14,846 nucleotides of DNA, taken from the IMG/VR virus record IMGVR_UViG_2703718772_000005; one strand, 5' to 3'. Position numbers and translations under genes: made by a program. The notes under the pieces were generated by a model. It was not told the DNA's origin. It saw only the letters and a list, made by a program, of their open reading frames with translations, and did not search any database. Source of the DNA: a virus. Taxonomy: Duplodnaviria > Heunggongvirae > Uroviricota > Caudoviricetes. Positions 1-12,212 of this stretch are shown here, piece after piece. How positions within the stretch are numbered: position 1 is the first letter of the stretch; each line of letters opens with the position of its first letter.

Positions 1-182
1 CAATAAAAAGTGAAGAACTCCTGAGCAGCGCACCATCCTTCATAACCACCCCAATACAAGATGATAACATTGGCTTACAACTCATAACAAAAGCAATTCA
101 ATGCCGTCAAGAGGTTACAGGCTAAAAAAACTCTATTACATAGCAGCCAGCATGTTTACCGTACAAGTACAACTCAGGGCAT

Positions 183-208
183 AAAAAAAACCCACTCGGC
201 AGCGGGTT
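183..208 (-). terminator. Intrinsic terminator downstream of Q (tR'-like)
   Basis: Minus-strand transcript forms AACCCGCU-GCCG-AGUGGGUU hairpin (GC-rich stem with one G-U pair, tetraloop) running into a U8 tract (complement of the A-run 183-190). Sits about 50 nt downstream of the candidate late promoter. Confidence 0.6.
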
Positions 209-242
209 TATACATTTTTTACAACATACCAAATTTGCATGA

Positions 243-271
243 AGTATATGGCTTTTAATCCAGTTTTGCAA
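243..271 (-). promoter_or_regulatory. Candidate sigma70 late promoter (PR'-like), overlapping the Q stop codon
   Basis: On the minus strand: -35 TTGCAA (266-271), 17-nt spacer, -10 TATACT (243-248), A/T-rich upstream. Position immediately 3' of a Q-like gene and 5' of an intrinsic terminator matches the lambdoid PR'-qut-tR' layout. Confidence 0.45.
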
Positions 272-1028
272 TATTTTGCTGTAAAAATGCTGCCTTTTGT
301 TTTGAACGTGTTCTCGTCACAAGCAATAAAGCATCACTATCAAGCTGTAGAAAAATGTGCTTCATTGCAACCCAGCGTTCAGTAAATGTCTCGGACCAGT
401 TTTTTGTTGTCACTCCCACCAATGATGCCAGTGTCTGGTATTCATAGGCCTCACGCCCTGCAAGTTCGCTCTTCACATCCTGTGCAGCCAGCCAGATTAA
501 CGTCTTCAGGCGATCCAGTGTCTTACCTGCAATTTTTCTGTTACTTAACAAATCTTTAAACTCGCTCCATGCCCATTGCGTTATGGTGACCTGATGCCCC
601 CATCGAACGCTTTCGCTGTAACACCAAAGCAACCATGCTTTCTGATGTTCATCGAGAGACAAAACCGCGCGGCGCCATGAAGAGGTTGAGAATTCAACCG
701 GGCTGACCAAAGCAATGGATGAACCTTTTGCGTACGACTGCTTACCGGAAGTCGGCGTATTATCCAGCGTAATCATCTTGCCAGTTACCACATCCAGAAT
801 GCGCGGCTTCTTTCGTTTGTATGTACCAGTATCAAATTGTGCATGCTCCTGCCAGGCTTCGAGCTGGCCTTTCGTTGCTCCGTTCAAGTCAGCAGTAGCT
901 GCCATAAGTTGCTCACGAACATACTGTAAATATTGGGTATTCATGCAGTAAATCCTTTCTATATTTTGGCATAATTCTTCAACATTCGGTAATCGTTCAA
1001 AACCGAATCGGGGAAACGACATAAGCAC
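255..1028 (-). CDS. Q-like late-gene antiterminator (call mainly positional)
   Basis: 257-codon ORF directly downstream of ninH/rusA in the nin operon orientation, followed by a promoter plus terminator pair. I do not recognise which Q family it belongs to. Start is uncertain: track start is GTG at 1028; in-frame ATG at 1022 and ATG at 944 (AGGA 8 nt upstream) are alternatives. Confidence 0.55.
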   Translation of the reverse strand: MLMSFPRFGFERLPNVEELCQNIERIYCMNTQYLQYVREQLMAATADLNGATKGQLEAWQEHAQFDTGTYKRKKPRILDVVTGKMITLDNTPTSGKQSYAKGSSIALVSPVEFSTSSWRRAVLSLDEHQKAWLLWCYSESVRWGHQVTITQWAWSEFKDLLSNRKIAGKTLDRLKTLIWLAAQDVKSELAGREAYEYQTLASLVGVTTKNWSETFTERWVAMKHIFLQLDSDALLLVTRTRSKQKAAFLQQNIAKLD

Positions 1029-1135
1029 ACGAGCCCCCAGCGACAGCGAAGGAGTTCTGATATATAAGACTCAGACATCATTCATTCCCCGGTTCTCCAA
1101 TATCTGTTTCACTCATCATCCATAACTACCTGTAA

Positions 1136-1420
1136 TTGCCCCCCCCTTTTTTTGTAACAGTTCTTATATTGCTATATAGAATAGCCATTACTAATGCTTT
1201 TAAATTTAATAAAATAAAAATTATAAAAAACATAAAACACCACGCAAACACACTTAATAAAAACACCGTTACATTAAAAGATAATAAAAACCGCAATAAA
1301 AAACGAATAAATCAATTGTCTCACGCAATTATAAAACATCATATTGATTACGCACCTTGTATTACAAACTCATGTATGTAAAATACGCGCACCATTCAAA
1401 AAAAAGGAAGACAATAACAT
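1136..1420. promoter_or_regulatory. Strongly AT-rich divergent intergenic region between Q and the lpxR-like gene; candidate lpxR promoter
   Basis: Phased A-tracts (repeated aataaaaa-type motifs) suggest curved DNA. Candidate plus-strand promoter: -35 TTGTAT (1357-1362), 16-nt spacer, -10 TAAAAT (1379-1384); SD AAGGAAG about 10 nt before ATG 1421. The 81-aa ORF 1136..1381 is K/N-rich low complexity and probably not coding. Confidence 0.3.
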
Positions 1421-2380
1421 ATGAAAAAAAGTGTCATCGCTGGCGTCTTTATTGCTCTGTCATTTACCACGTGTTCAGCTATCGCGAACAGCCTTGCATT
1501 ATCATTAGCAAATGATGATGCAGGGAAGTTTCAACCAATACTTAATGATATTTATGGCAATAAACATGAAAACAGAGATGATTACTCACAAGGCTTATTT
1601 CTGGGATATAGCCACGATATCTCAGACTCGAGCCAATTATCTCTCCATATTGCGCAAGATATTTACTCTCCATCAGGCAGTAATAAAAGACACAACACAG
1701 CTGTAACTGGAGACAGAGCTTTTAGTGCATACACTCACACTGGTATTGAATGGAACTCCCTTGCGAATGACTGGATTCGCTATCGATTAGGTACTGACAT
1801 AGGTGTTGTTGGCCCCGACGCAGGCGGTCAGAAAGTACAAAATAAAGCTCATGAGATTATTGGGGCAGAAAAATATCATGCATGGGATGATCAAATAGAG
1901 AATCGCTACGGTTATACTGTAAAAGGGATGCTATCCATGACACCAAGTATGGATATTTTAGGTGCTAATGTTGGATTATACCCTGAAGTTTCTGCTGTTA
2001 CTGGAAACTTATTTCAATATGTAGCATATGGCGCAACCATTGCCATTGGTAATGATAAAACCTTCAATTCGGATAATGGCTTTGGTCTGCTGGCTCCCCG
2101 TGGTTTAATGCATATGTCCGATACAAGCGGATTCAAATACAAGATTTTTGCAGGTATGGAAAGACGAGATGTCAATCGCAACTATACTCTCGAAGGAAAA
2201 ACAATACAGACGAAACAAACAACAGTATCGCTAAACAAAACTGTTGATGAATATCAAGTTGGCGCAACAATTGGGTATGCACCTGTAGCCTTCACACTAG
2301 CATTTAATAAAGTAACATCAGAATTCAAGACAGGGGATGACTATTCATTTATAAATGGAGCAATCACCTTCTTTTTTTAA
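1421..2380 (+). CDS. lpxR: Outer-membrane beta-barrel, LpxR-family lipid A 3'-O-deacylase-like (prophage cargo gene)
   Basis: 319 aa, same length as Salmonella LpxR as I recall it. N-terminal signal peptide with AIA cleavage motif; C-terminal Phe (ITFFF) typical of OM barrels. If cleaved after Ala22, mature positions 9, 10, 34, 122 are N, D, S, H, matching my recollection of the reported LpxR active-site residues N9, D10, T34, H122. AT-rich and on the opposite strand to flanking phage genes. Confidence 0.7.
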   Translation: MKKSVIAGVFIALSFTTCSAIANSLALSLANDDAGKFQPILNDIYGNKHENRDDYSQGLFLGYSHDISDSSQLSLHIAQDIYSPSGSNKRHNTAVTGDRAFSAYTHTGIEWNSLANDWIRYRLGTDIGVVGPDAGGQKVQNKAHEIIGAEKYHAWDDQIENRYGYTVKGMLSMTPSMDILGANVGLYPEVSAVTGNLFQYVAYGATIAIGNDKTFNSDNGFGLLAPRGLMHMSDTSGFKYKIFAGMERRDVNRNYTLEGKTIQTKQTTVSLNKTVDEYQVGATIGYAPVAFTLAFNKVTSEFKTGDDYSFINGAITFFF

Positions 2381-2427
2381 CTGAATTGAATTCAATCAAA
2401 ATAACATAAGTCCAACAAAAACATAAA

Positions 2428-2462
2428 GTGCGAAATGAATGCCAGCTCCATTTATTTCGCAC
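2428..2462. terminator. Long hairpin between convergent lpxR and ninH; terminator-like, mainly for the minus strand
   Basis: GTGCGAAATGAATG / CATTTATTTCGCAC arms (14 bp, one G-U) around a 7-nt loop. On the minus strand it is followed by a U-rich tract (UUUAUGUUUUUGUUGG); on the plus strand by an A-rich tract, so weaker there. Confidence 0.5.
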
Positions 2463-2591
2463 TATAAAAGATTAAAAGTTGCAATAAAATAATAAAATGA
2501 CTCAGTTACGAAAACCAATAAACTGTGGCCAGTAGTGAGTCGCTCATCATCGGGCTTTTTGGCGAATGAAATTTAGCTACGCTTTCGAGTC

Positions 2592-2780
2592 TCATCGTCT
2601 TCCCCTCTTGCCCTGTTTGACCATCAGGACGCCGTTAACTATTACATGACGCTCGCCTTTGCTGTCTCGGTTGTACTTGAGCACTGTTCCTCTTGCGCAG
2701 GAAAGCATCCTCGCCACTTCGGTCTGATTGCCTCGTGTCTGGATAAGAAGCTCTGGTATCGTTTGAATTGTGGCGTTCAT
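2592..2780 (-). CDS. ninH: NinH-like protein
   Basis: 62 aa, resembles lambda NinH (IPxxL...GNQTEVAR...RGTV.KY motif). ATG overlaps the rusA stop as ATGA. Confidence 0.75.
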   Translation of the reverse strand: MNATIQTIPELLIQTRGNQTEVARMLSCARGTVLKYNRDSKGERHVIVNGVLMVKQGKRGRR

Positions 2781-3139
2781 GCGTTCTCCAGTTCGGTGAT
2801 TTTTATTCCAAGCCGTCCGCCTGGTACTTTCACACCACGAATTATGCGAATGTCATCGAATTGCTCGTCGTCTTCCGCAAATCCGGCATGGATAAGGGAG
2901 TCGAGTAAACCCTTCAGGATGTTATCTAGGTCGCGGCGGCGGGAGTCTGGAACGTCTGCGATTACTTTGATGCGGAGTCGTGATTTGGTGAAAATATCTA
3001 ACTTGAGTTGGTGGATGATTTGCTGAACGTCTTTTCGGTATTTCTGGCCTTTATCGCTGATGTAGTATTGGCTTCCCCGTCTTCGCCAGTAGGTATTCAC
3101 CGACGGCGGGTATGGAAGCACAAACTGATATTCGTTCAT
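2777..3139 (-). CDS. rusA: Holliday junction resolvase RusA
   Basis: 120 aa, clear similarity to E. coli RusA (LPxPPSxNxYxR, DRRRRDLDN, GGRL motifs). Start overlaps the ybcO stop. Confidence 0.9.
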   Translation of the reverse strand: MNEYQFVLPYPPSVNTYWRRRGSQYYISDKGQKYRKDVQQIIHQLKLDIFTKSRLRIKVIADVPDSRRRDLDNILKGLLDSLIHAGFAEDDEQFDDIRIIRGVKVPGGRLGIKITELENA

Positions 3140-3426
3140 GACTTAATCTTCCCCTCCTTCAGCAGTATCGCCTGCGTCCTGATCACGCCTTCGAGGTGGT
3201 AAAGTCTGGCGTCTTTGTTGTCGAGAATCCTTGTGCGTCGGTCGATCTCCGCGTGGCAGTCACTACAAGCCCATGCGCCGATCAGGTCGTCAGGCTTCAT
3301 CCCCGTTCCACAAATTCCAGCCATCCGGTAATGTGCCAGAACTGTAGTTTCAGGATTGCCATTGCATACGCCGTAAATACGTACCTGGCATTCTCTGCCG
3401 CGCGCTTCTTTGCGTAGGTTAGCCAT
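3136..3426 (-). CDS. ybcO: YbcO-like putative nuclease (DUF1364)
   Basis: 96 aa, strong resemblance to DLP12 YbcO (RGRECQVRI.GVCNGNPET.VLAH, CSxCHxEIDRRT). SD GGGAAGG upstream of the ATG. Confidence 0.8.
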   Translation of the reverse strand: MANLRKEARGRECQVRIYGVCNGNPETTVLAHYRMAGICGTGMKPDDLIGAWACSDCHAEIDRRTRILDNKDARLYHLEGVIRTQAILLKEGKIKS

Positions 3427-3631
3427 TTACCTTCCCTCGCAATTGAAGAATTGACTGAAGGTCTTTTTTAATAAATATGCGAGTGCGAATTGAGCAGTAG
3501 TTTTCCTTCATTCTGGCGTAGTAATAGTCCTTTCTTTGCTTAAGTTTGTTGGCATCCGCTGTCATCCAGTCTTTTACAGCAAACTTAATTAGCCAGCGGT
3601 GGCAGAGATACCATTTCAGGTAATCACTCAT
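3419..3631 (-). CDS. Hypothetical nin-region protein (70 aa), occupies the position of ninG in lambda
   Basis: ORF whose ATG lies 5 nt before the ninF stop (8-nt overlap) and whose stop overlaps the ybcO start. Basic, W/Y-rich; no family recognised. Confidence 0.45.
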   Translation of the reverse strand: MSDYLKWYLCHRWLIKFAVKDWMTADANKLKQRKDYYYARMKENYCSIRTRIFIKKDLQSILQLRGKVNG

Positions 3632-3800
3632 CGTCTTCTTCCTCGTACATTGAGCTATTCGGATCGCTCATCAGTTCTGCACAGCAGTGCTCACACACGT
3701 GAACTTCCAGCACATGCAGCTTCTGACCGCAGTTAGCGCACGTTAAAGCTCGCTCGACGCTTTCTTTCTGGTATTGAAGGGATTGGGATGGGCTAAGCAT
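3624..3800 (-). CDS. ninF: NinF-like small zinc-ribbon protein (58 aa, below the ORF-track cutoff)
   Basis: Hand translation gives [58 protein letters not shown], which matches lambda NinF as I recall it. Two Cys pairs (CxxC ... CxxCC) and an acidic tail. ATG overlaps the stop of the upstream gene. Confidence 0.8.
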   Translation of the reverse strand: MLSPSQSLQYQKESVERALTCANCGQKLHVLEVHVCEHCCAELMSDPNSSMYEEEDDE

Positions 3801-4165
3801 TATTGGATTCTCTGCATCATGAGAAAGACAATCATGGCGGCGCGAAGGGGATTTTCATGTATAGCTCGCTTAGATTTACAGTAGGCCACACCGCGTGCAC
3901 CCCACTCGTCTTCATCGAGATTGATAATGCTAATCCTGTATTTTTCAATAATCGGCCATGAGTCTGCTGGGTTTGCGCATGGGTTAAAGGATCCGCGCTC
4001 AACTTCTACTTCAACTGCGTCTCCGTTTACAATGTCTCCCTCAAATGAGACAAACACCATATCGCCATTCTCACCTTCTTTGTAATCCGGCGATCCGTTA
4101 TGAATGGCTTCGAATACCGCCACGTTAATTTCAAAATCACTTAACTGTGAATAATCCATTGTCAT
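3800..4165 (-). CDS. Hypothetical nin-region protein (NinX-like position), about 121 aa
   Basis: Track ORF 3800..4201 begins at GTG. The ATG at 4163-4165 forms an ATGA overlap with the ninE stop, consistent with the coupling pattern of the operon; ATG at 4157-4159 is an alternative. Acidic protein, family not recognised with certainty. Confidence 0.55.
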
Positions 4166-4338
4166 TTCCTCGCACGATGTCTTAGCCACCGGATATCCCA
4201 CAGGTGAGCCGTGTAGTTGAAGGTTTTTACGTCAGATTCTTTTGGGATTGGCTTGCGTTTATTTCTGGAGCGTTTCGTTGGAAGGTATTTGCAGTTTTCG
4301 CAGATGATGTCGGTGATACTTCGTCGCTGTCGTCTCAT
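4162..4338 (-). CDS. ninE: NinE-like protein (58 aa, below the ORF-track cutoff)
   Basis: Hand translation gives [61 protein letters not shown] overlaps the ninB stop (ATGA) and its stop overlaps the next start (ATGA). Confidence 0.8.
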
Positions 4339-4745
4339 TCGTACCTCCTGTCGGTAAATCTGACACCATGACCAATAGCCCAGGCTGTTGTGTACTCGAT
4401 AAGACTTGCCATACGCTTCACACTCATCTGCGCGCTGCTTTCGCGAATGTTGACGTATTCGCCTTCAAGCCCGGGAAAAACATCAGCTTCCTGTTTTGTT
4501 GCCACTGCATGACCGCTGATCAACAAAACCTTCCATTGTTCTGGTTTTAACCATTTGCCGCACCATTGAACCTGACGAGCGATATCCGCCAGCATCGCGT
4601 GAAATTTTGCGTTCTGGTCAAGGTTGCGCTTGTAGTCAGTAATGCGGATGGTGACTGGCTTGTCTTTATCGAGTGGTGTTGCGAGGATGGCATTTATTGC
4701 AGCTTGCTGTTGTTGCTTAGTTCGGAGGAAGATTGTTTGCTTCAT
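4335..4745 (-). CDS. ninB: NinB (Orf-family recombination mediator)
   Basis: 136 aa, similar to lambda NinB (N-terminal MK..., LDQN, W.GKWL motifs as recalled). First recognisable nin gene of the operon. Confidence 0.85.
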
Positions 4746-5079
4746 CGAAATTCTTCTCTTTAATTCCAGCGGCTCTGATAGCTTTCATTACTGCAATTAC
4801 CGTTTTGTCTCTCCCATCCTCATAACCCATCGCATAAGCACCTTCTTCACCATCTTTCCAAAAGTCGTCATTCGATTCGGGCCAGTCAATATCCAGTTCA
4901 ATAGCTGCTCGCGATGCCTGCCACGTTTGCCAGTGGCCTTGAACATCGTCCATCACGTATTGACCACCAATATCACCACTGCCAATTTCATGGTGATTTT
5001 CAGGGTAACGGATAAGGTCTGAGGATTCGCCTCCACGTCGCAACCAACTTTCTTCAAACTGCTTTCTTGATTCGTCCAT
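4717..5079 (-). CDS. Hypothetical acidic W-rich protein (120 aa)
   Basis: ORF with SD GAGGG about 10 nt upstream of ATG 5079; its 3' end overlaps the ninB start by 29 nt. No family recognised. Confidence 0.5.
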   Translation of the reverse strand: MDESRKQFEESWLRRGGESSDLIRYPENHHEIGSGDIGGQYVMDDVQGHWQTWQASRAAIELDIDWPESNDDFWKDGEEGAYAMGYEDGRDKTVIAVMKAIRAAGIKEKNFDEANNLPPN

Positions 5080-5096
5080 CGATACTTACCCTCAGT

Positions 5097-5303
5097 TCAA
5101 CTCACAAAACTCCACGCCATTTTTGCTACAGCGACAGGCATAACACCGATAATCACCCACAGGAAAATGCTACCGAAAAGCACACCCACCAGGTCTTTAC
5201 CTTCGCCTACCAACCGGACAAAACTGCTGGCAACAACAATGAACGTCGCCACCATCCACATAGCACCGAGAATCCTCAATGCAGAGAAAATTAACTCAGC
5301 CAC
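5097..5303 (-). CDS. Small hydrophobic protein, two predicted transmembrane segments (68 aa)
   Basis: GTG start with a very strong SD (GGGGGAGGG, 6-nt spacing). Two about 25-residue hydrophobic stretches separated by a short EGKD loop. Lies directly downstream of an intrinsic terminator. Confidence 0.4.
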   Translation of the reverse strand: MAELIFSALRILGAMWMVATFIVVASSFVRLVGEGKDLVGVLFGSIFLWVIIGVMPVAVAKMAWSFVS

Positions 5304-5318
5304 GATTTACCCTCCCCC

Positions 5319-5350
5319 AAATAAAAAGGCCTGCGATTACCAGCAGGCCT
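5319..5350 (-). terminator. Intrinsic terminator between the 96-aa and 68-aa genes
   Basis: Minus-strand RNA AGGCCUGC-UGGUAAUC-GCAGGCCU (8-bp GC-rich stem) followed by UUUUAUUU; 26 nt downstream of the 96-aa gene stop. Confidence 0.55.
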
Positions 5351-5375
5351 GTTATTAGCTCAGTGATGTAGATGG

Positions 5376-5666
5376 TCATTGCCTTACCTCCATAAGCGCC
5401 CTATTAATAAACGCCGTCATTGGATTTGCACATCCCCACCCCGTACCATCTGGATTTCTTTTAATTGGCTCCTTCTTCACTTTGCGTTTTGCATAAATAA
5501 CCGTCTTCCACTTACGCTCAACAACACTCAAATGTCCTTGTTTCACCATATGCCTTGCTGCTTGAGCGATTCTGTTATTTGGTATTCCGGTGATCAGTGC
5601 TAATTCATGTGGGGAGAATTGTTCATGAGTTTTCAGATATTCCAGGATGATTTCTTTTCCAGTCAC
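5376..5666 (-). CDS. Hypothetical DNA-binding protein (possible winged helix), 96 aa
   Basis: GTG start with SD AGGAG 7 nt upstream and an in-frame stop 4 codons upstream. Central segment (ELALITGIPNNRIAQAARHMVKQGHL) looks like a helix-turn-helix; basic C-terminal half. First gene on the minus strand after the rearrangement junction. Confidence 0.55.
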   Translation of the reverse strand: MTGKEIILEYLKTHEQFSPHELALITGIPNNRIAQAARHMVKQGHLSVVERKWKTVIYAKRKVKKEPIKRNPDGTGWGCANPMTAFINRALMEVRQ

Positions 5667-5694
5667 GATCTGCTCCTGTAACTATCCCATGTAA

Positions 5695-6288
5695 ACGCAT
5701 CTGAAACTGCAGACTGCGCAGGATTCAGACAATGGATTTTCGGCGCTTGAACAGGCGCTGCTGCGGTATATCGCCGCCGGTCTTGGCGTTTCCTACGAAC
5801 AGTTGTCCCGGGATTACTCGAAGGTCAGTTATTCAAGTGCCCGCGCCTCCGCCAATGAGTCGTGGCGCTATTTTATGGGACGACGAAAATTTATTGCGTC
5901 CCGGCTGGCCACGCAGATGTTTTCCTGCTGGCTGGAAGAGGCACTTCTTCGGGGGATTATTCGTCCGCCACGGGCGCGTTTTGATTTTTATCAGGCGCGA
6001 TCAGCCTGGTCACGGGCTGAGTGGATTGGAGCCGGAAGAATGGCCATTGACGGGCTCAAGGAAGTCCAGGAATCAGTGATGCGCATTGAGGCCGGACTGA
6101 GCACGTATGAGAAAGAGCTGGCGCTGATGGGCGAGGATTATCAGGACATTTTCCGCCAGCAGGTCAGGGAATCTGCTGAGCGACAAAAAGCCGGACTCTC
6201 ACGTCCGGTGTGGATAGCGCAGGCGTATGAGCAGCAGATAGCGGAGAGTCGCAGGCCGGAAGAGGAGACAACACCACGTGAGACGTAA
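5695..6288 (+). pseudogene. B: Portal protein B, 5'-truncated remnant (C-terminal about 195 codons only)
   Basis: Open frame from stop at 5692-5694 to 6288, no ATG before the TTG at 5803. Sits immediately upstream of and overlapping gene C, as the portal gene does in lambda; about 1 kb of expected upstream coding is replaced by minus-strand nin-module genes. Confidence 0.7.
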
Positions 6289-11780: not shown

Positions 11781-12212
11781 ATGTTTCTGAAAACCGAACA
11801 ATTTGAATATAACGGTGTGTCCGTCACGCTTTCCGAGCTGTCTGCGCTGCAGCGTATCGAGCATCTTGCCCTGCTGAAACGACGGGCAGAACAGGCTGAA
11901 GCCAGCGGTAACCTGCAGGTGAGCGTGGAAGACCTTGTCAGAACCGGCGCGTTTCTGGTGGCGATGTCCCTGTGGCATAACCATCCACAGAAAACGGAGT
12001 CACCGTCAATGAATGAGGCCGTGATGAAGATAGAGCAGGAAGTGCTCACCACCTGGCCTGCCGATGCCATTGCCCGGGCGGAAGACGTGGTGTTGTGCCT
12101 GTCCGGGATGATCGAAGCTGTTCGTCCGGATACTGATATTACTGAAGTGGCGAAAAATAACACGCTGACTGATGATGATTTTTCTGCGGGAAAGTCTTCG
12201 ACGGCGAGCTGA
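11781..12212 (+). CDS. G: Tail assembly chaperone G (gpG-like)
   Basis: 143 aa, strong similarity to lambda gpG (MFLKTE.FE.NGV.VTLSELSALQRIEHLAL.KR.AEQAE..., AFLVAMSLWHNHPQKT). SD GGAGG upstream. Confidence 0.9.
   Translation: MFLKTEQFEYNGVSVTLSELSALQRIEHLALLKRRAEQAEASGNLQVSVEDLVRTGAFLVAMSLWHNHPQKTESPSMNEAVMKIEQEVLTTWPADAIARAEDVVLCLSGMIEAVRPDTDITEVAKNNTLTDDDFSAGKSSTAS

What the first reader, a model, noticed from the sequence alone, without database searches (positions are those of the whole stretch)
2381..2591. Strong hairpin between convergent lpxR and ninH: Q sits behind a terminator and 1 kb of antisense cargo gene
For early (nin) transcripts to reach Q they must pass a 14-bp hairpin followed by a U-rich tract (2428-2462) and then read antisense through the whole lpxR gene. 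This predicts that Q expression needs antitermination and that prophage induction would interfere with lpxR transcription, and vice versa: a built-in transcriptional-interference switch between a conversion gene and the lytic late regulator.
Basis: inference. Interest (0 to 1): 0.5.

Follow-up and report, generated by a model that had tools for sequence, protein, structure and literature searches.

The report
Weak terminator hairpin beside prophage lpxR
The hairpin is real and looks like a modest, one-way transcription stop at the seam where a lipid A deacylase cargo gene (lpxR) and a new Q gene were spliced into a lambda-type phage, but this is the ordinary lambdoid layout and this copy has lost the early promoter that would feed it.

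Summary
Observation confirmed. A 15-bp inverted repeat (2427-2441 / 2449-2463, 7-nt loop) lies between lpxR (1421-2380, +) and ninH (2592-2780, -). It is the only such repeat in the window and appeared in none of 460 shuffles. The U-rich tail lies only on the minus strand, the nin-to-Q direction.

Reaching ylcG-Q (1081-255, -) means crossing about 1.4 kb of untranslated RNA antisense to lpxR.

The interval is not purely intergenic. 2506-2595 (-) is the 5' remnant of a lambda-type Q gene, so the hairpin sits in a mosaic module (lpxR + ylcG + Q82-type Q) that replaced most of that gene.

The same module is 99% identical in viable phage 434 and occurs in 620 of 5,426 complete E. coli genomes.

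By a classical discriminant the hairpin scores as a sub-threshold terminator, weaker than the tR2-like and tR'-like sites in the window.

That Q needs N antitermination is standard lambdoid biology. The transcriptional-interference switch is untested.

It cannot operate in this copy: the prophage is truncated at 5699/5700 and lacks repressor, pR, nutR and replication genes.

Verdict: an unannotated, probably weak terminator of a known kind. Low interest.

The parts
2427..2463 (-). Stem-loop with 15-bp arms and a 7-nt loop. On the - strand it forms 14 pairs plus one A.C mismatch (-15.4 kcal/mol). On the + strand it forms 15 pairs with one G.U (-18.1 kcal/mol).
   Evidence: It is unique in the window and absent from 460 shuffles. 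The stems are invariant and the loop varies at 3 of 7 positions across 11 distinct variants.
2411..2426 (-). U-rich tail (UUAUGUUUUUGUUGG) directly 3' of the stem on the nin-to-Q strand.
   Evidence: T-score 3.27-3.85, against 0.58 for the + strand tail at 2464-2483.
2506..2595 (-). 29-codon 5' remnant of a lambda-type Q gene (MRLESVAKFHSPKSPMMSDS..., then divergent). Its ATG overlaps the ninH stop (ATGA). The mosaic junction lies at about 2520-2525.
   Evidence: identical to lambda Q from the ATG for about 75 nt. RefSeq pseudogene annotation; phage 434 note; phrog_127; intact Q genes elsewhere align from window 2525 onward.
2592..2780 (-). ninH, the last intact gene of the nin operon.
   Evidence: PF06322, E 2e-24.
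1421..2380 (+). lpxR, a lipid A 3'-O-deacylase cargo gene convergent with the nin operon.
   Evidence: PF09982.. GC is 36-47% with flanks of 22-31%, against about 50% in nin. It belongs to the Ler regulon according to PMC9263587.
1082..1420 (.). AT-rich divergent intergenic region (GC 22-32%) between ylcG-Q and lpxR. It presumably holds the lpxR promoter and contains the C8T7 homopolymer at 1138-1152.
   Evidence: Promoter-like hits are no more frequent than in shuffles.
959..1081 (-). ylcG-like small ORF just upstream of Q.
255..944 (-). Q82-type late antiterminator Q.
   Evidence: PF06323, E 2e-91; ('Q82-like').
5327..5350 (-). tR2-like intrinsic terminator between the ren-like gene and the nin genes. 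It serves as an internal comparison.
   Evidence: d = +17.5. It aligns with the terminator annotated in phage 434.
5699..5705 (.). Truncation junction of the prophage. The last roughly 33 nt of a DnaC-like loader gene abut a truncated portal gene on the other strand, so everything upstream is missing (replication genes, cII, cro, pR, nutR, cI, N).

Best explanation
The hairpin is a one-directional, probably partial, factor-independent terminator that marks the end of the translated nin operon for unmodified RNA polymerase. It lies 42 nt after the stop codon of a 29-codon remnant of a lambda-type Q gene.

The hairpin belongs to a mosaic module: terminator, antisense lpxR, AT-rich spacer, ylcG and a Q82-type Q. 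That module replaced most of the original Q gene by recombination about 75 nt into it.

In intact carriers (phage 434, and prophages such as L108), rightward transcription from pR must cross three things to reach Q. These are the hairpin, about 1.35 kb of untranslated RNA antisense to lpxR (a likely substrate for Rho), and an AT-rich stretch that H-NS probably binds. N-modified polymerase would read through all of them, as it does at lambda tR2-tR4.

In a lysogen the same elements would keep stray rightward transcription from running antisense into lpxR or reaching Q.

On the lpxR strand the stem has no U tract. There it can at most stabilise the mRNA 3' end.

In this window the circuit is vestigial, because the prophage has lost pR, nutR and N.

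Shown: the structure, its strand asymmetry, the mosaic junction, the truncation, and the existence of intact relatives. Inferred: termination itself, Rho and H-NS involvement, and N read-through.
For: - Structure, uniqueness and strand-specific U tract.
- Position 42 nt after the stop of the last translated ORF, which is coupled to ninH by an ATGA overlap.
- No ORF longer than 43 aa on the - strand between 2523 and 1082, and a C>G patch in the - strand RNA at about 2023-1824.
- Low-GC island from about 1082 to 2524.
- Junction with lambda Q.
- The hairpin is found only with lpxR. All 54 IMG/VR stretches that carry it lie on lpxR contigs, apart from one that starts just before the hairpin.
- The same module is 99% identical in viable phage 434, which has nutR, boxA, O and P upstream.
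- L108 carries a cI-like repressor, Cro, CII, O and a DnaC-like loader upstream of the identical nin-ninH-Q'-hairpin-lpxR arrangement.
- Lambdoid rule that Q depends on N-antiterminated pR transcription: PMC10695390 and PMC7547250.
Against: - The discriminant score on the - strand is below the usual cut-off (-9 to -17). The stem is long and AU-rich, has a 7-nt loop and carries an A.C mismatch.
- The U-tract score is only about the 95th percentile for this AT-rich strand.
- The phage 434 annotators marked several terminators but none here.
- There is no covariation. The stems are invariant, but diversity is too low for that to mean anything (P = 0.21).
- No RNA 3'-end data could be consulted.
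Confidence: 0.55

Rival explanations
1. The stem-loop serves mainly the lpxR mRNA. It would be a 3'-end stabilising hairpin, with or without weak termination, for a transcript that is actually ended downstream by Rho. The U tract on the other strand would then be incidental AT-richness.
For: The stem is more stable as + strand RNA (15 pairs with G.U, -18.1 against -15.4 kcal/mol). It lies 47 nt after the lpxR stop and always travels with lpxR. The + strand fold of 2381-2591 has z = -2.8, against -1.3 for the - strand. The - strand tail score is only about the 95th percentile locally.
Against: There is no U tract on the + strand (T-score 0.58, d = -59), so it is not a canonical terminator for lpxR. 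Which strand gets G.U rather than A.C is a coin-flip outcome of a single transition. This role also does not exclude the main explanation.
Confidence: 0.25
2. The convergent arrangement would be a selected transcriptional-interference or antisense switch, in which lpxR transcription lowers or delays Q expression and N-antiterminated early transcription shuts off lpxR on induction.
For: Convergent geometry with a 960-nt overlap lies between the early operon and lpxR, in the leader of ylcG-Q. The module is kept in many intact-looking prophages and in phage 434. lpxR is an actively regulated Ler/Pch-dependent gene. From my own knowledge, antisense control has precedents in lambda: OOP RNA against cII, and paQ against Q.
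Against: There is no expression data. The two best-known EHEC-type copies (this O111-type window and O157:H7 86-24) have lost pR, N and nutR through different deletions yet keep lpxR and Q, so retention does not depend on the circuit. pR is off in a lysogen, so there is nothing to interfere with. After induction, silencing a surface-modifying gene has no evident benefit. From my own knowledge, N-modified polymerase is highly processive. Cargo genes in antisense orientation occur without any such role: an ORF I recognise as bor lies on the opposite strand just after Rz in lambda.
Confidence: 0.1
3. The palindrome is a functionless relic of the recombination or insertion event that created the mosaic joint.
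For: It lies about 60 bp from the lambda-Q junction. It shows no covariation and scores below the terminator threshold.
Against: A 15-bp repeat with a U tract placed just after the last stop codon is not expected by chance (0 of 460 shuffles). All three substitutions inside the hairpin fall in the loop.
Confidence: 0.1

Closest known systems
Terminators of the lambda delayed-early (nin) region upstream of Q (tR2, tR3, tR4), overridden by N
   Same: It sits between the replication/nin genes and Q on the pR transcript. It would block unmodified polymerase and make Q expression depend on N. The window also carries a tR2 homologue at 5327-5350.
   Different: It is not homologous to any of them. 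It lies after the last nin gene, inside an inserted low-GC module, and its predicted strength is lower (d = -9 to -17, against +17.5 for the tR2-like site). It is followed by about 1.35 kb of untranslated antisense RNA rather than by coupled nin ORFs.
Phage 434 lpxR-ylcG-Q82-like module (GenBank OL657226)
   Same: 99% identical over window 900-2606, including the hairpin, the lambda-Q remnant, lpxR, ylcG and Q.
   Different: In 434 the upstream gene is the ninI phosphatase rather than ninH. 434 lacks an 8-bp AT repeat in the spacer. The 434 genome is complete, with nutR, O, P and cII. The hairpin is not annotated in that record.
Morons, meaning autonomous cargo genes in lambdoid phages (for example lambda bor, transcribed against the late operon)
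   Same: It is a low-GC island between conserved phage genes, absent from relatives where ninH or ninI is followed directly by an intact Q. It is regulated on its own, by Ler/Pch. It is oriented against an antiterminated phage operon, like an ORF I recognise as bor on the opposite strand just after Rz in lambda (its identity and the moron concept are from my own knowledge).
   Different: The flanking terminator-like signal faces the phage operon, not the cargo gene. The cargo also arrived joined to a replacement Q gene rather than as a simple insertion.
Convergent-promoter interference and antisense control in temperate phages (186 pR/pL; lambda paQ against Q; OOP against cII)
   Same: Convergent transcription overlaps the leader of a key regulator.
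   Different: No evidence of regulation here. The 'antisense' partner is a full-length protein-coding mRNA. The early promoter is absent in this copy.

Membership tests
Rho-independent (intrinsic) terminator, nin-to-Q (-) strand | Stable stem-loop in the RNA | tested here: met
   14 pairs plus an A.C mismatch, -15.4 kcal/mol, but AU-rich with a 7-nt loop.
Rho-independent (intrinsic) terminator, nin-to-Q (-) strand | U-rich tract immediately 3' of the stem | tested here: met
   UUAUGUUUUUGUUGG, 6 U in the first 8, T-score 3.27-3.85. This is about the 95th percentile locally.
Rho-independent (intrinsic) terminator, nin-to-Q (-) strand | Combined hairpin and tail score above the discriminant threshold | tested here: not met
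   d = -9 to -17, against +17.5 and +9.2 for the tR2-like and tR'-like sites. The formula was re-implemented here with ViennaRNA energies, so the threshold is approximate.
Rho-independent (intrinsic) terminator, nin-to-Q (-) strand | RNA 3' ends or termination observed at the site | not testable with these tools
   EHEC Term-seq data exist only at GEO (PMC7547250).
Rho-independent terminator of lpxR (+ strand), or bidirectional terminator | U tract 3' of the stem on the + strand | tested here: not met
   The tail is AUAAAAGAUUAAAAG, T-score 0.58, d = -59.
Moron (autonomous cargo gene in a lambdoid phage) | Compositionally distinct insert, present or absent between conserved phage genes | tested here: met
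   GC of 22-47% against about 50%. HK620, mEpX1 and others have ninH followed by an intact Q.
Moron (autonomous cargo gene in a lambdoid phage) | Own promoter and own terminator | tested here: inconclusive
   Promoter-like hits are no more frequent than in shuffles. There is no canonical terminator on the lpxR strand. Independent Ler/Pch regulation is reported.
Transcriptional-interference switch (convergent promoters) | Two active convergent promoters in cis | tested here: not met
   There is no early promoter region in this prophage. It is truncated at 5699/5700 and has no boxA match. The feature is met only in relatives.
Transcriptional-interference switch (convergent promoters) | Reciprocal effect on expression | not testable with these tools
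   This needs strand-specific RNA-seq and reporters.
Known sRNA families (Rfam; the PasD and EcOnc13 sRNAs) | Match to a described RNA at the hairpin | tested here: not met
   No Rfam hit at 2381-2591 at E <= 1. PasD maps between the DUF3927 gene and the esterase gene, outside the window.

The most novel reading that the evidence does not exclude
In intact 434-like prophages the convergent lpxR transcript (Ler/Pch-activated, so high in the virulence-on state) could measurably reduce or delay ylcG-Q expression, through polymerase collision or through an RNA duplex across 960 nt of the Q leader. That would couple lysis timing to the host's virulence regulon. N-antiterminated early transcription would in turn switch off lipid A deacylation after induction.
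Probability: 0.1. Interest if true: 0.5.

Novelty: new member of a known kind. Interest (0 to 1): 0.2.

Why it matters
The site adds one unannotated, probably weak terminator to a well-understood scheme in which lambdoid delayed-early transcription reaches Q only with N. It also documents exactly how the lpxR virulence-associated cargo gene entered these phages: fused to a replacement Q gene inside the remnant of a lambda-type Q.

The practical value is for annotation. The module is in 11% of complete E. coli genomes and in the classical phage 434. It also serves anyone studying lpxR expression in EHEC or EPEC.

The lpxR-bearing prophage copies examined in O111-type and O157:H7 strains are decayed and cannot be induced in cis. 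lpxR regulation in those copies should therefore be independent of phage early transcription.

Tried and rejected
- Known RNA family at the hairpin: the Rfam scan of 1-6000 at E <= 1 found nothing there.
- Hairpin as the PasD sRNA, which is reported next to lpxR and Q: rejected. PasD2 maps between the DUF3927 gene and the esterase gene, and that position lies left of the window.
- Covariation support: 55 IMG/VR loci plus phage 434 gave only 11 distinct variants and no stem changes. This is uninformative (P = 0.21).
- Conservation of the hairpin downstream of distant lpxR homologues: loci at 71-73% protein identity (L056, L057, Citrobacter L058) have unrelated 3' flanks. The hairpin is therefore specific to this E. 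coli phage module.
- Hairpin elsewhere without lpxR: none among the 54 IMG/VR matches.
- Direct Term-seq evidence: the EHEC data set (PMC7547250) is only at GEO.
- A paper on the phage 434 genome: none found in the library.
- Cheng, Court and Friedman 1995 on nin terminators is not held.
- An internal Q promoter in 1082-1420: one 9/12 promoter-like hit on the - strand (1367->1338), but such hits are fewer than in shuffles (7 against 10.8). No conclusion is possible.

Full report
**What is at the coordinates**

The interval 2381-2591 lies between the stop codon of lpxR (1421-2380, + strand; Pfam LpxR, E 7e-40) and the stop codon of ninH (2592-2780, - strand; Pfam NinH, E 2e-24).

The inverted repeat is AGTGCGAAATGAATG (2427-2441), loop CCAGCTC (2442-2448), CATTTATTTCGCACT (2449-2463).
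- As + strand RNA it forms 15 pairs with one G.U (-18.1 kcal/mol).
- As - strand RNA it forms 14 pairs with one A.C mismatch (-15.4 kcal/mol).
- It is the only short-loop inverted repeat in the window with arms of at least 14 bp and at most one mismatch.
- None appeared in 60 dinucleotide shuffles of the window or in 400 shuffles of 1029-2600.

**Strand asymmetry**

The U-rich tract is only on the - strand (UUAUGUUUUUGUUGG at 2426->2411). The + strand tail is AUAAAAGAUUAAAAG.
- Tail scores are 3.27-3.85 on the - strand and 0.58 on the + strand.
It is not a canonical terminator for lpxR.

It is not a strong terminator either. A re-implementation of the d'Aubenton-Carafa discriminant gave the following:

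| Site | d score |
|---|---|
| Hairpin, - strand | -9 to -17 |
| Hairpin, + strand | -59 |
| tR2-like site, 5327-5350 (-) | +17.5 |
| tR'-like site, 188-209 (-) | +9.2 |

- The stem is long and AU-rich, and the loop is 7 nt.
- The tail score is only about the 95th percentile for this AT-rich strand.
- The consensus scan did not report the site. From its stated criteria I infer that the mismatch excludes it on one strand and the missing T run on the other.

**The interval is a mosaic joint, not plain intergenic DNA**

- RefSeq annotates 2524-2595 (-) as a truncated antitermination gene.
- The phage 434 record annotates the same ORF as an N-terminal fragment of lambda Q.
- Translation gives MRLESVAKFHSPKSPMMSDS followed by divergent residues. 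By my codon count on the sequence the ORF is 29 codons with its stop at 2506-2508, which matches the 90-nt CDS annotated in 434.
- Alignment with lambda shows identity from the Q start codon for about 75 nt and none after that.
- In other E. coli genomes, intact Q genes preceded by ninH or by the ninI phosphatase align with the window only from 2525 onward.
- Phages such as HK620 and mEpX1 have ninH followed directly by an intact Q.

The segment from about 1082 to about 2524 is a low-GC island: 22-31% in the flanks and 36-47% in lpxR, against about 50% in the nin genes.

A module made of the hairpin, antisense lpxR, an AT-rich spacer, ylcG (959-1081) and a Q82-type Q (255-944; Pfam PF06323, E 2e-91) therefore replaced most of a lambda-type Q gene.

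The hairpin lies 42 nt after the stop of the remnant ORF. That ORF is coupled to ninH by an ATGA overlap. This is the usual position of an operon-end terminator.

**Distribution**

- The module is 99% identical in phage 434 (OL657226), a viable classical lambdoid phage with nutR, boxA, cII, O, P and tR2 upstream. Homology with the window ends exactly at the ATG of the Q remnant, because 434 has ninI rather than ninH upstream.
- The junction is present in 620 of 5,426 complete E. coli genomes, in both ninH and ninI contexts.
- It occurs in 55 IMG/VR contigs.
- The hairpin never occurs there without lpxR.
- Distant lpxR homologues have unrelated 3' flanks.
- Among 11 distinct sequence variants the stems never vary and three of the seven loop positions do (P = 0.004 for the loop). 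Stem invariance itself is not significant at this depth (P = 0.21) and there is no covariation.

**State of this particular copy**

The window matches E. coli O111-type genomes, with a prophage next to ybhC.
- Homology to intact phages stops at 5699, about 33 nt into the 3' end of a DnaC-like loader gene.
- The next sequence is a truncated portal gene on the opposite strand, followed by head and tail genes.
- There is no repressor, cro, pR, nutR (no boxA match), N, O or P.
- In strain 11128 the left side shows int, a partial lysozyme gene and an IS.

This prophage is a rearranged remnant. No phage early promoter feeds the nin operon in cis.

The copy in O157:H7 strain 86-24 is truncated in a different way, with ninE abutting a partial bet.

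Intact versions do exist.
- L108 has a cI-like repressor, Cro, CII, O and a DnaC-like loader upstream of a nin region that is 100% identical at 5300-5699 and 99.8% identical across ninH-rusA, followed by the same hairpin.
- Many other contigs have lambda-type O and P upstream.

**Most likely mechanism**

In intact carriers, polymerase leaving ninH and the Q remnant meets three obstacles before ylcG-Q:
1. The modest hairpin plus U tract.
2. About 1.35 kb with no ORF longer than 43 aa, antisense to lpxR, with a C>G patch at about 2023-1824. I infer that this is a good substrate for Rho.
3. A 22-32% GC spacer, which I infer is bound by H-NS. This fits the reported Ler/Pch activation of lpxR.

N-modified polymerase should pass all three, as in lambda. 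There, every gene past cro depends on N, Q is the last gene of the unit, and roadblocks in nin are polar on Q (PMC10695390; PMC7547250).

In the lysogen these elements would insulate lpxR and Q from stray rightward transcription. On the lpxR strand the stem could stabilise the mRNA 3' end but is unlikely to terminate.

All functional steps are inferred. No RNA-end data were available.

The anatomy and the need for antitermination are right, but they restate the standard lambdoid cascade.

The proposed interference switch between lpxR and Q is physically possible in intact relatives. However:
- No evidence supports it.
- It is not needed to explain why the module is retained, since two independently decayed prophages keep it.
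- It cannot operate here.

Cargo genes facing against an antiterminated operon have precedent. An ORF I recognise as bor lies on the opposite strand just after Rz in lambda (its identity is from my own knowledge).

**Verdict**

- The feature is an unannotated, probably weak, one-way terminator at a documented mosaic joint.
- It is a new member of a known kind and of low general interest.
- The most novel reading still open is real coupling of lysis timing to the virulence regulon in 434-like phages. I put this at about 10%.

Noticed in passing
window 5699-5705 (and L001 18807-20114): This is the prophage truncation junction: the 3' end of a DnaC-like loader gene abuts a truncated portal gene on the other strand. 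Strain 11128 has an IS3-family pseudogene of about 1.3 kb inserted exactly here. The window lacks it, and 7 bp (5699-5705) align to both sides, so the junction probably predates the IS insertion.
   Followed up: partly
window 1138-1152: A C8T7 homopolymer lies in the divergent ylcG/lpxR intergenic region, directly upstream of a promoter-like GTAACA-17-TAGAAT on the lpxR strand. Its length varies among related loci (C6-C8, T6-T8). This may be real slippage or an assembly artefact.
   Followed up: partly
window 179-271 (-): A late-promoter-like site (TTGCAA-17-TATACT, 271->243) at the 3' end of Q is followed by a terminator-like hairpin (209->188). This would be a short PR'-tR' type transcript. 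It gives a weak, sub-threshold Rfam match to the sRNA family STnc240 (28 bits, E 0.46).
   Followed up: no
L059 (O157:H7 86-24) 15886-15916; compare window 5699: The lpxR-bearing prophages next to ybhC in O157:H7 and in O111-type strains have lost their immunity and replication regions through different deletions. Both still keep lpxR, ylcG, Q and the downstream membrane-protein genes.
   Followed up: partly
window 2442-2448: All three substitutions seen inside the hairpin among related loci fall in the 7-nt loop (positions 2443, 2446, 2448). This is more than the local background rate predicts (P = 0.004).
   Followed up: yes
window 2386-2395: A 10-bp perfect palindrome TTGAATTCAA lies just after the lpxR stop codon. 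No function is suggested.
   Followed up: no
left of the window (L001 about 11885-12184): The published sRNA PasD (EcOnc13 homologue), reported within 10 kb of lpxR and a Q gene in more than 98% of cases, maps between the DUF3927 gene and the sialate esterase gene. That is downstream of Q and outside this window.
   Followed up: yes
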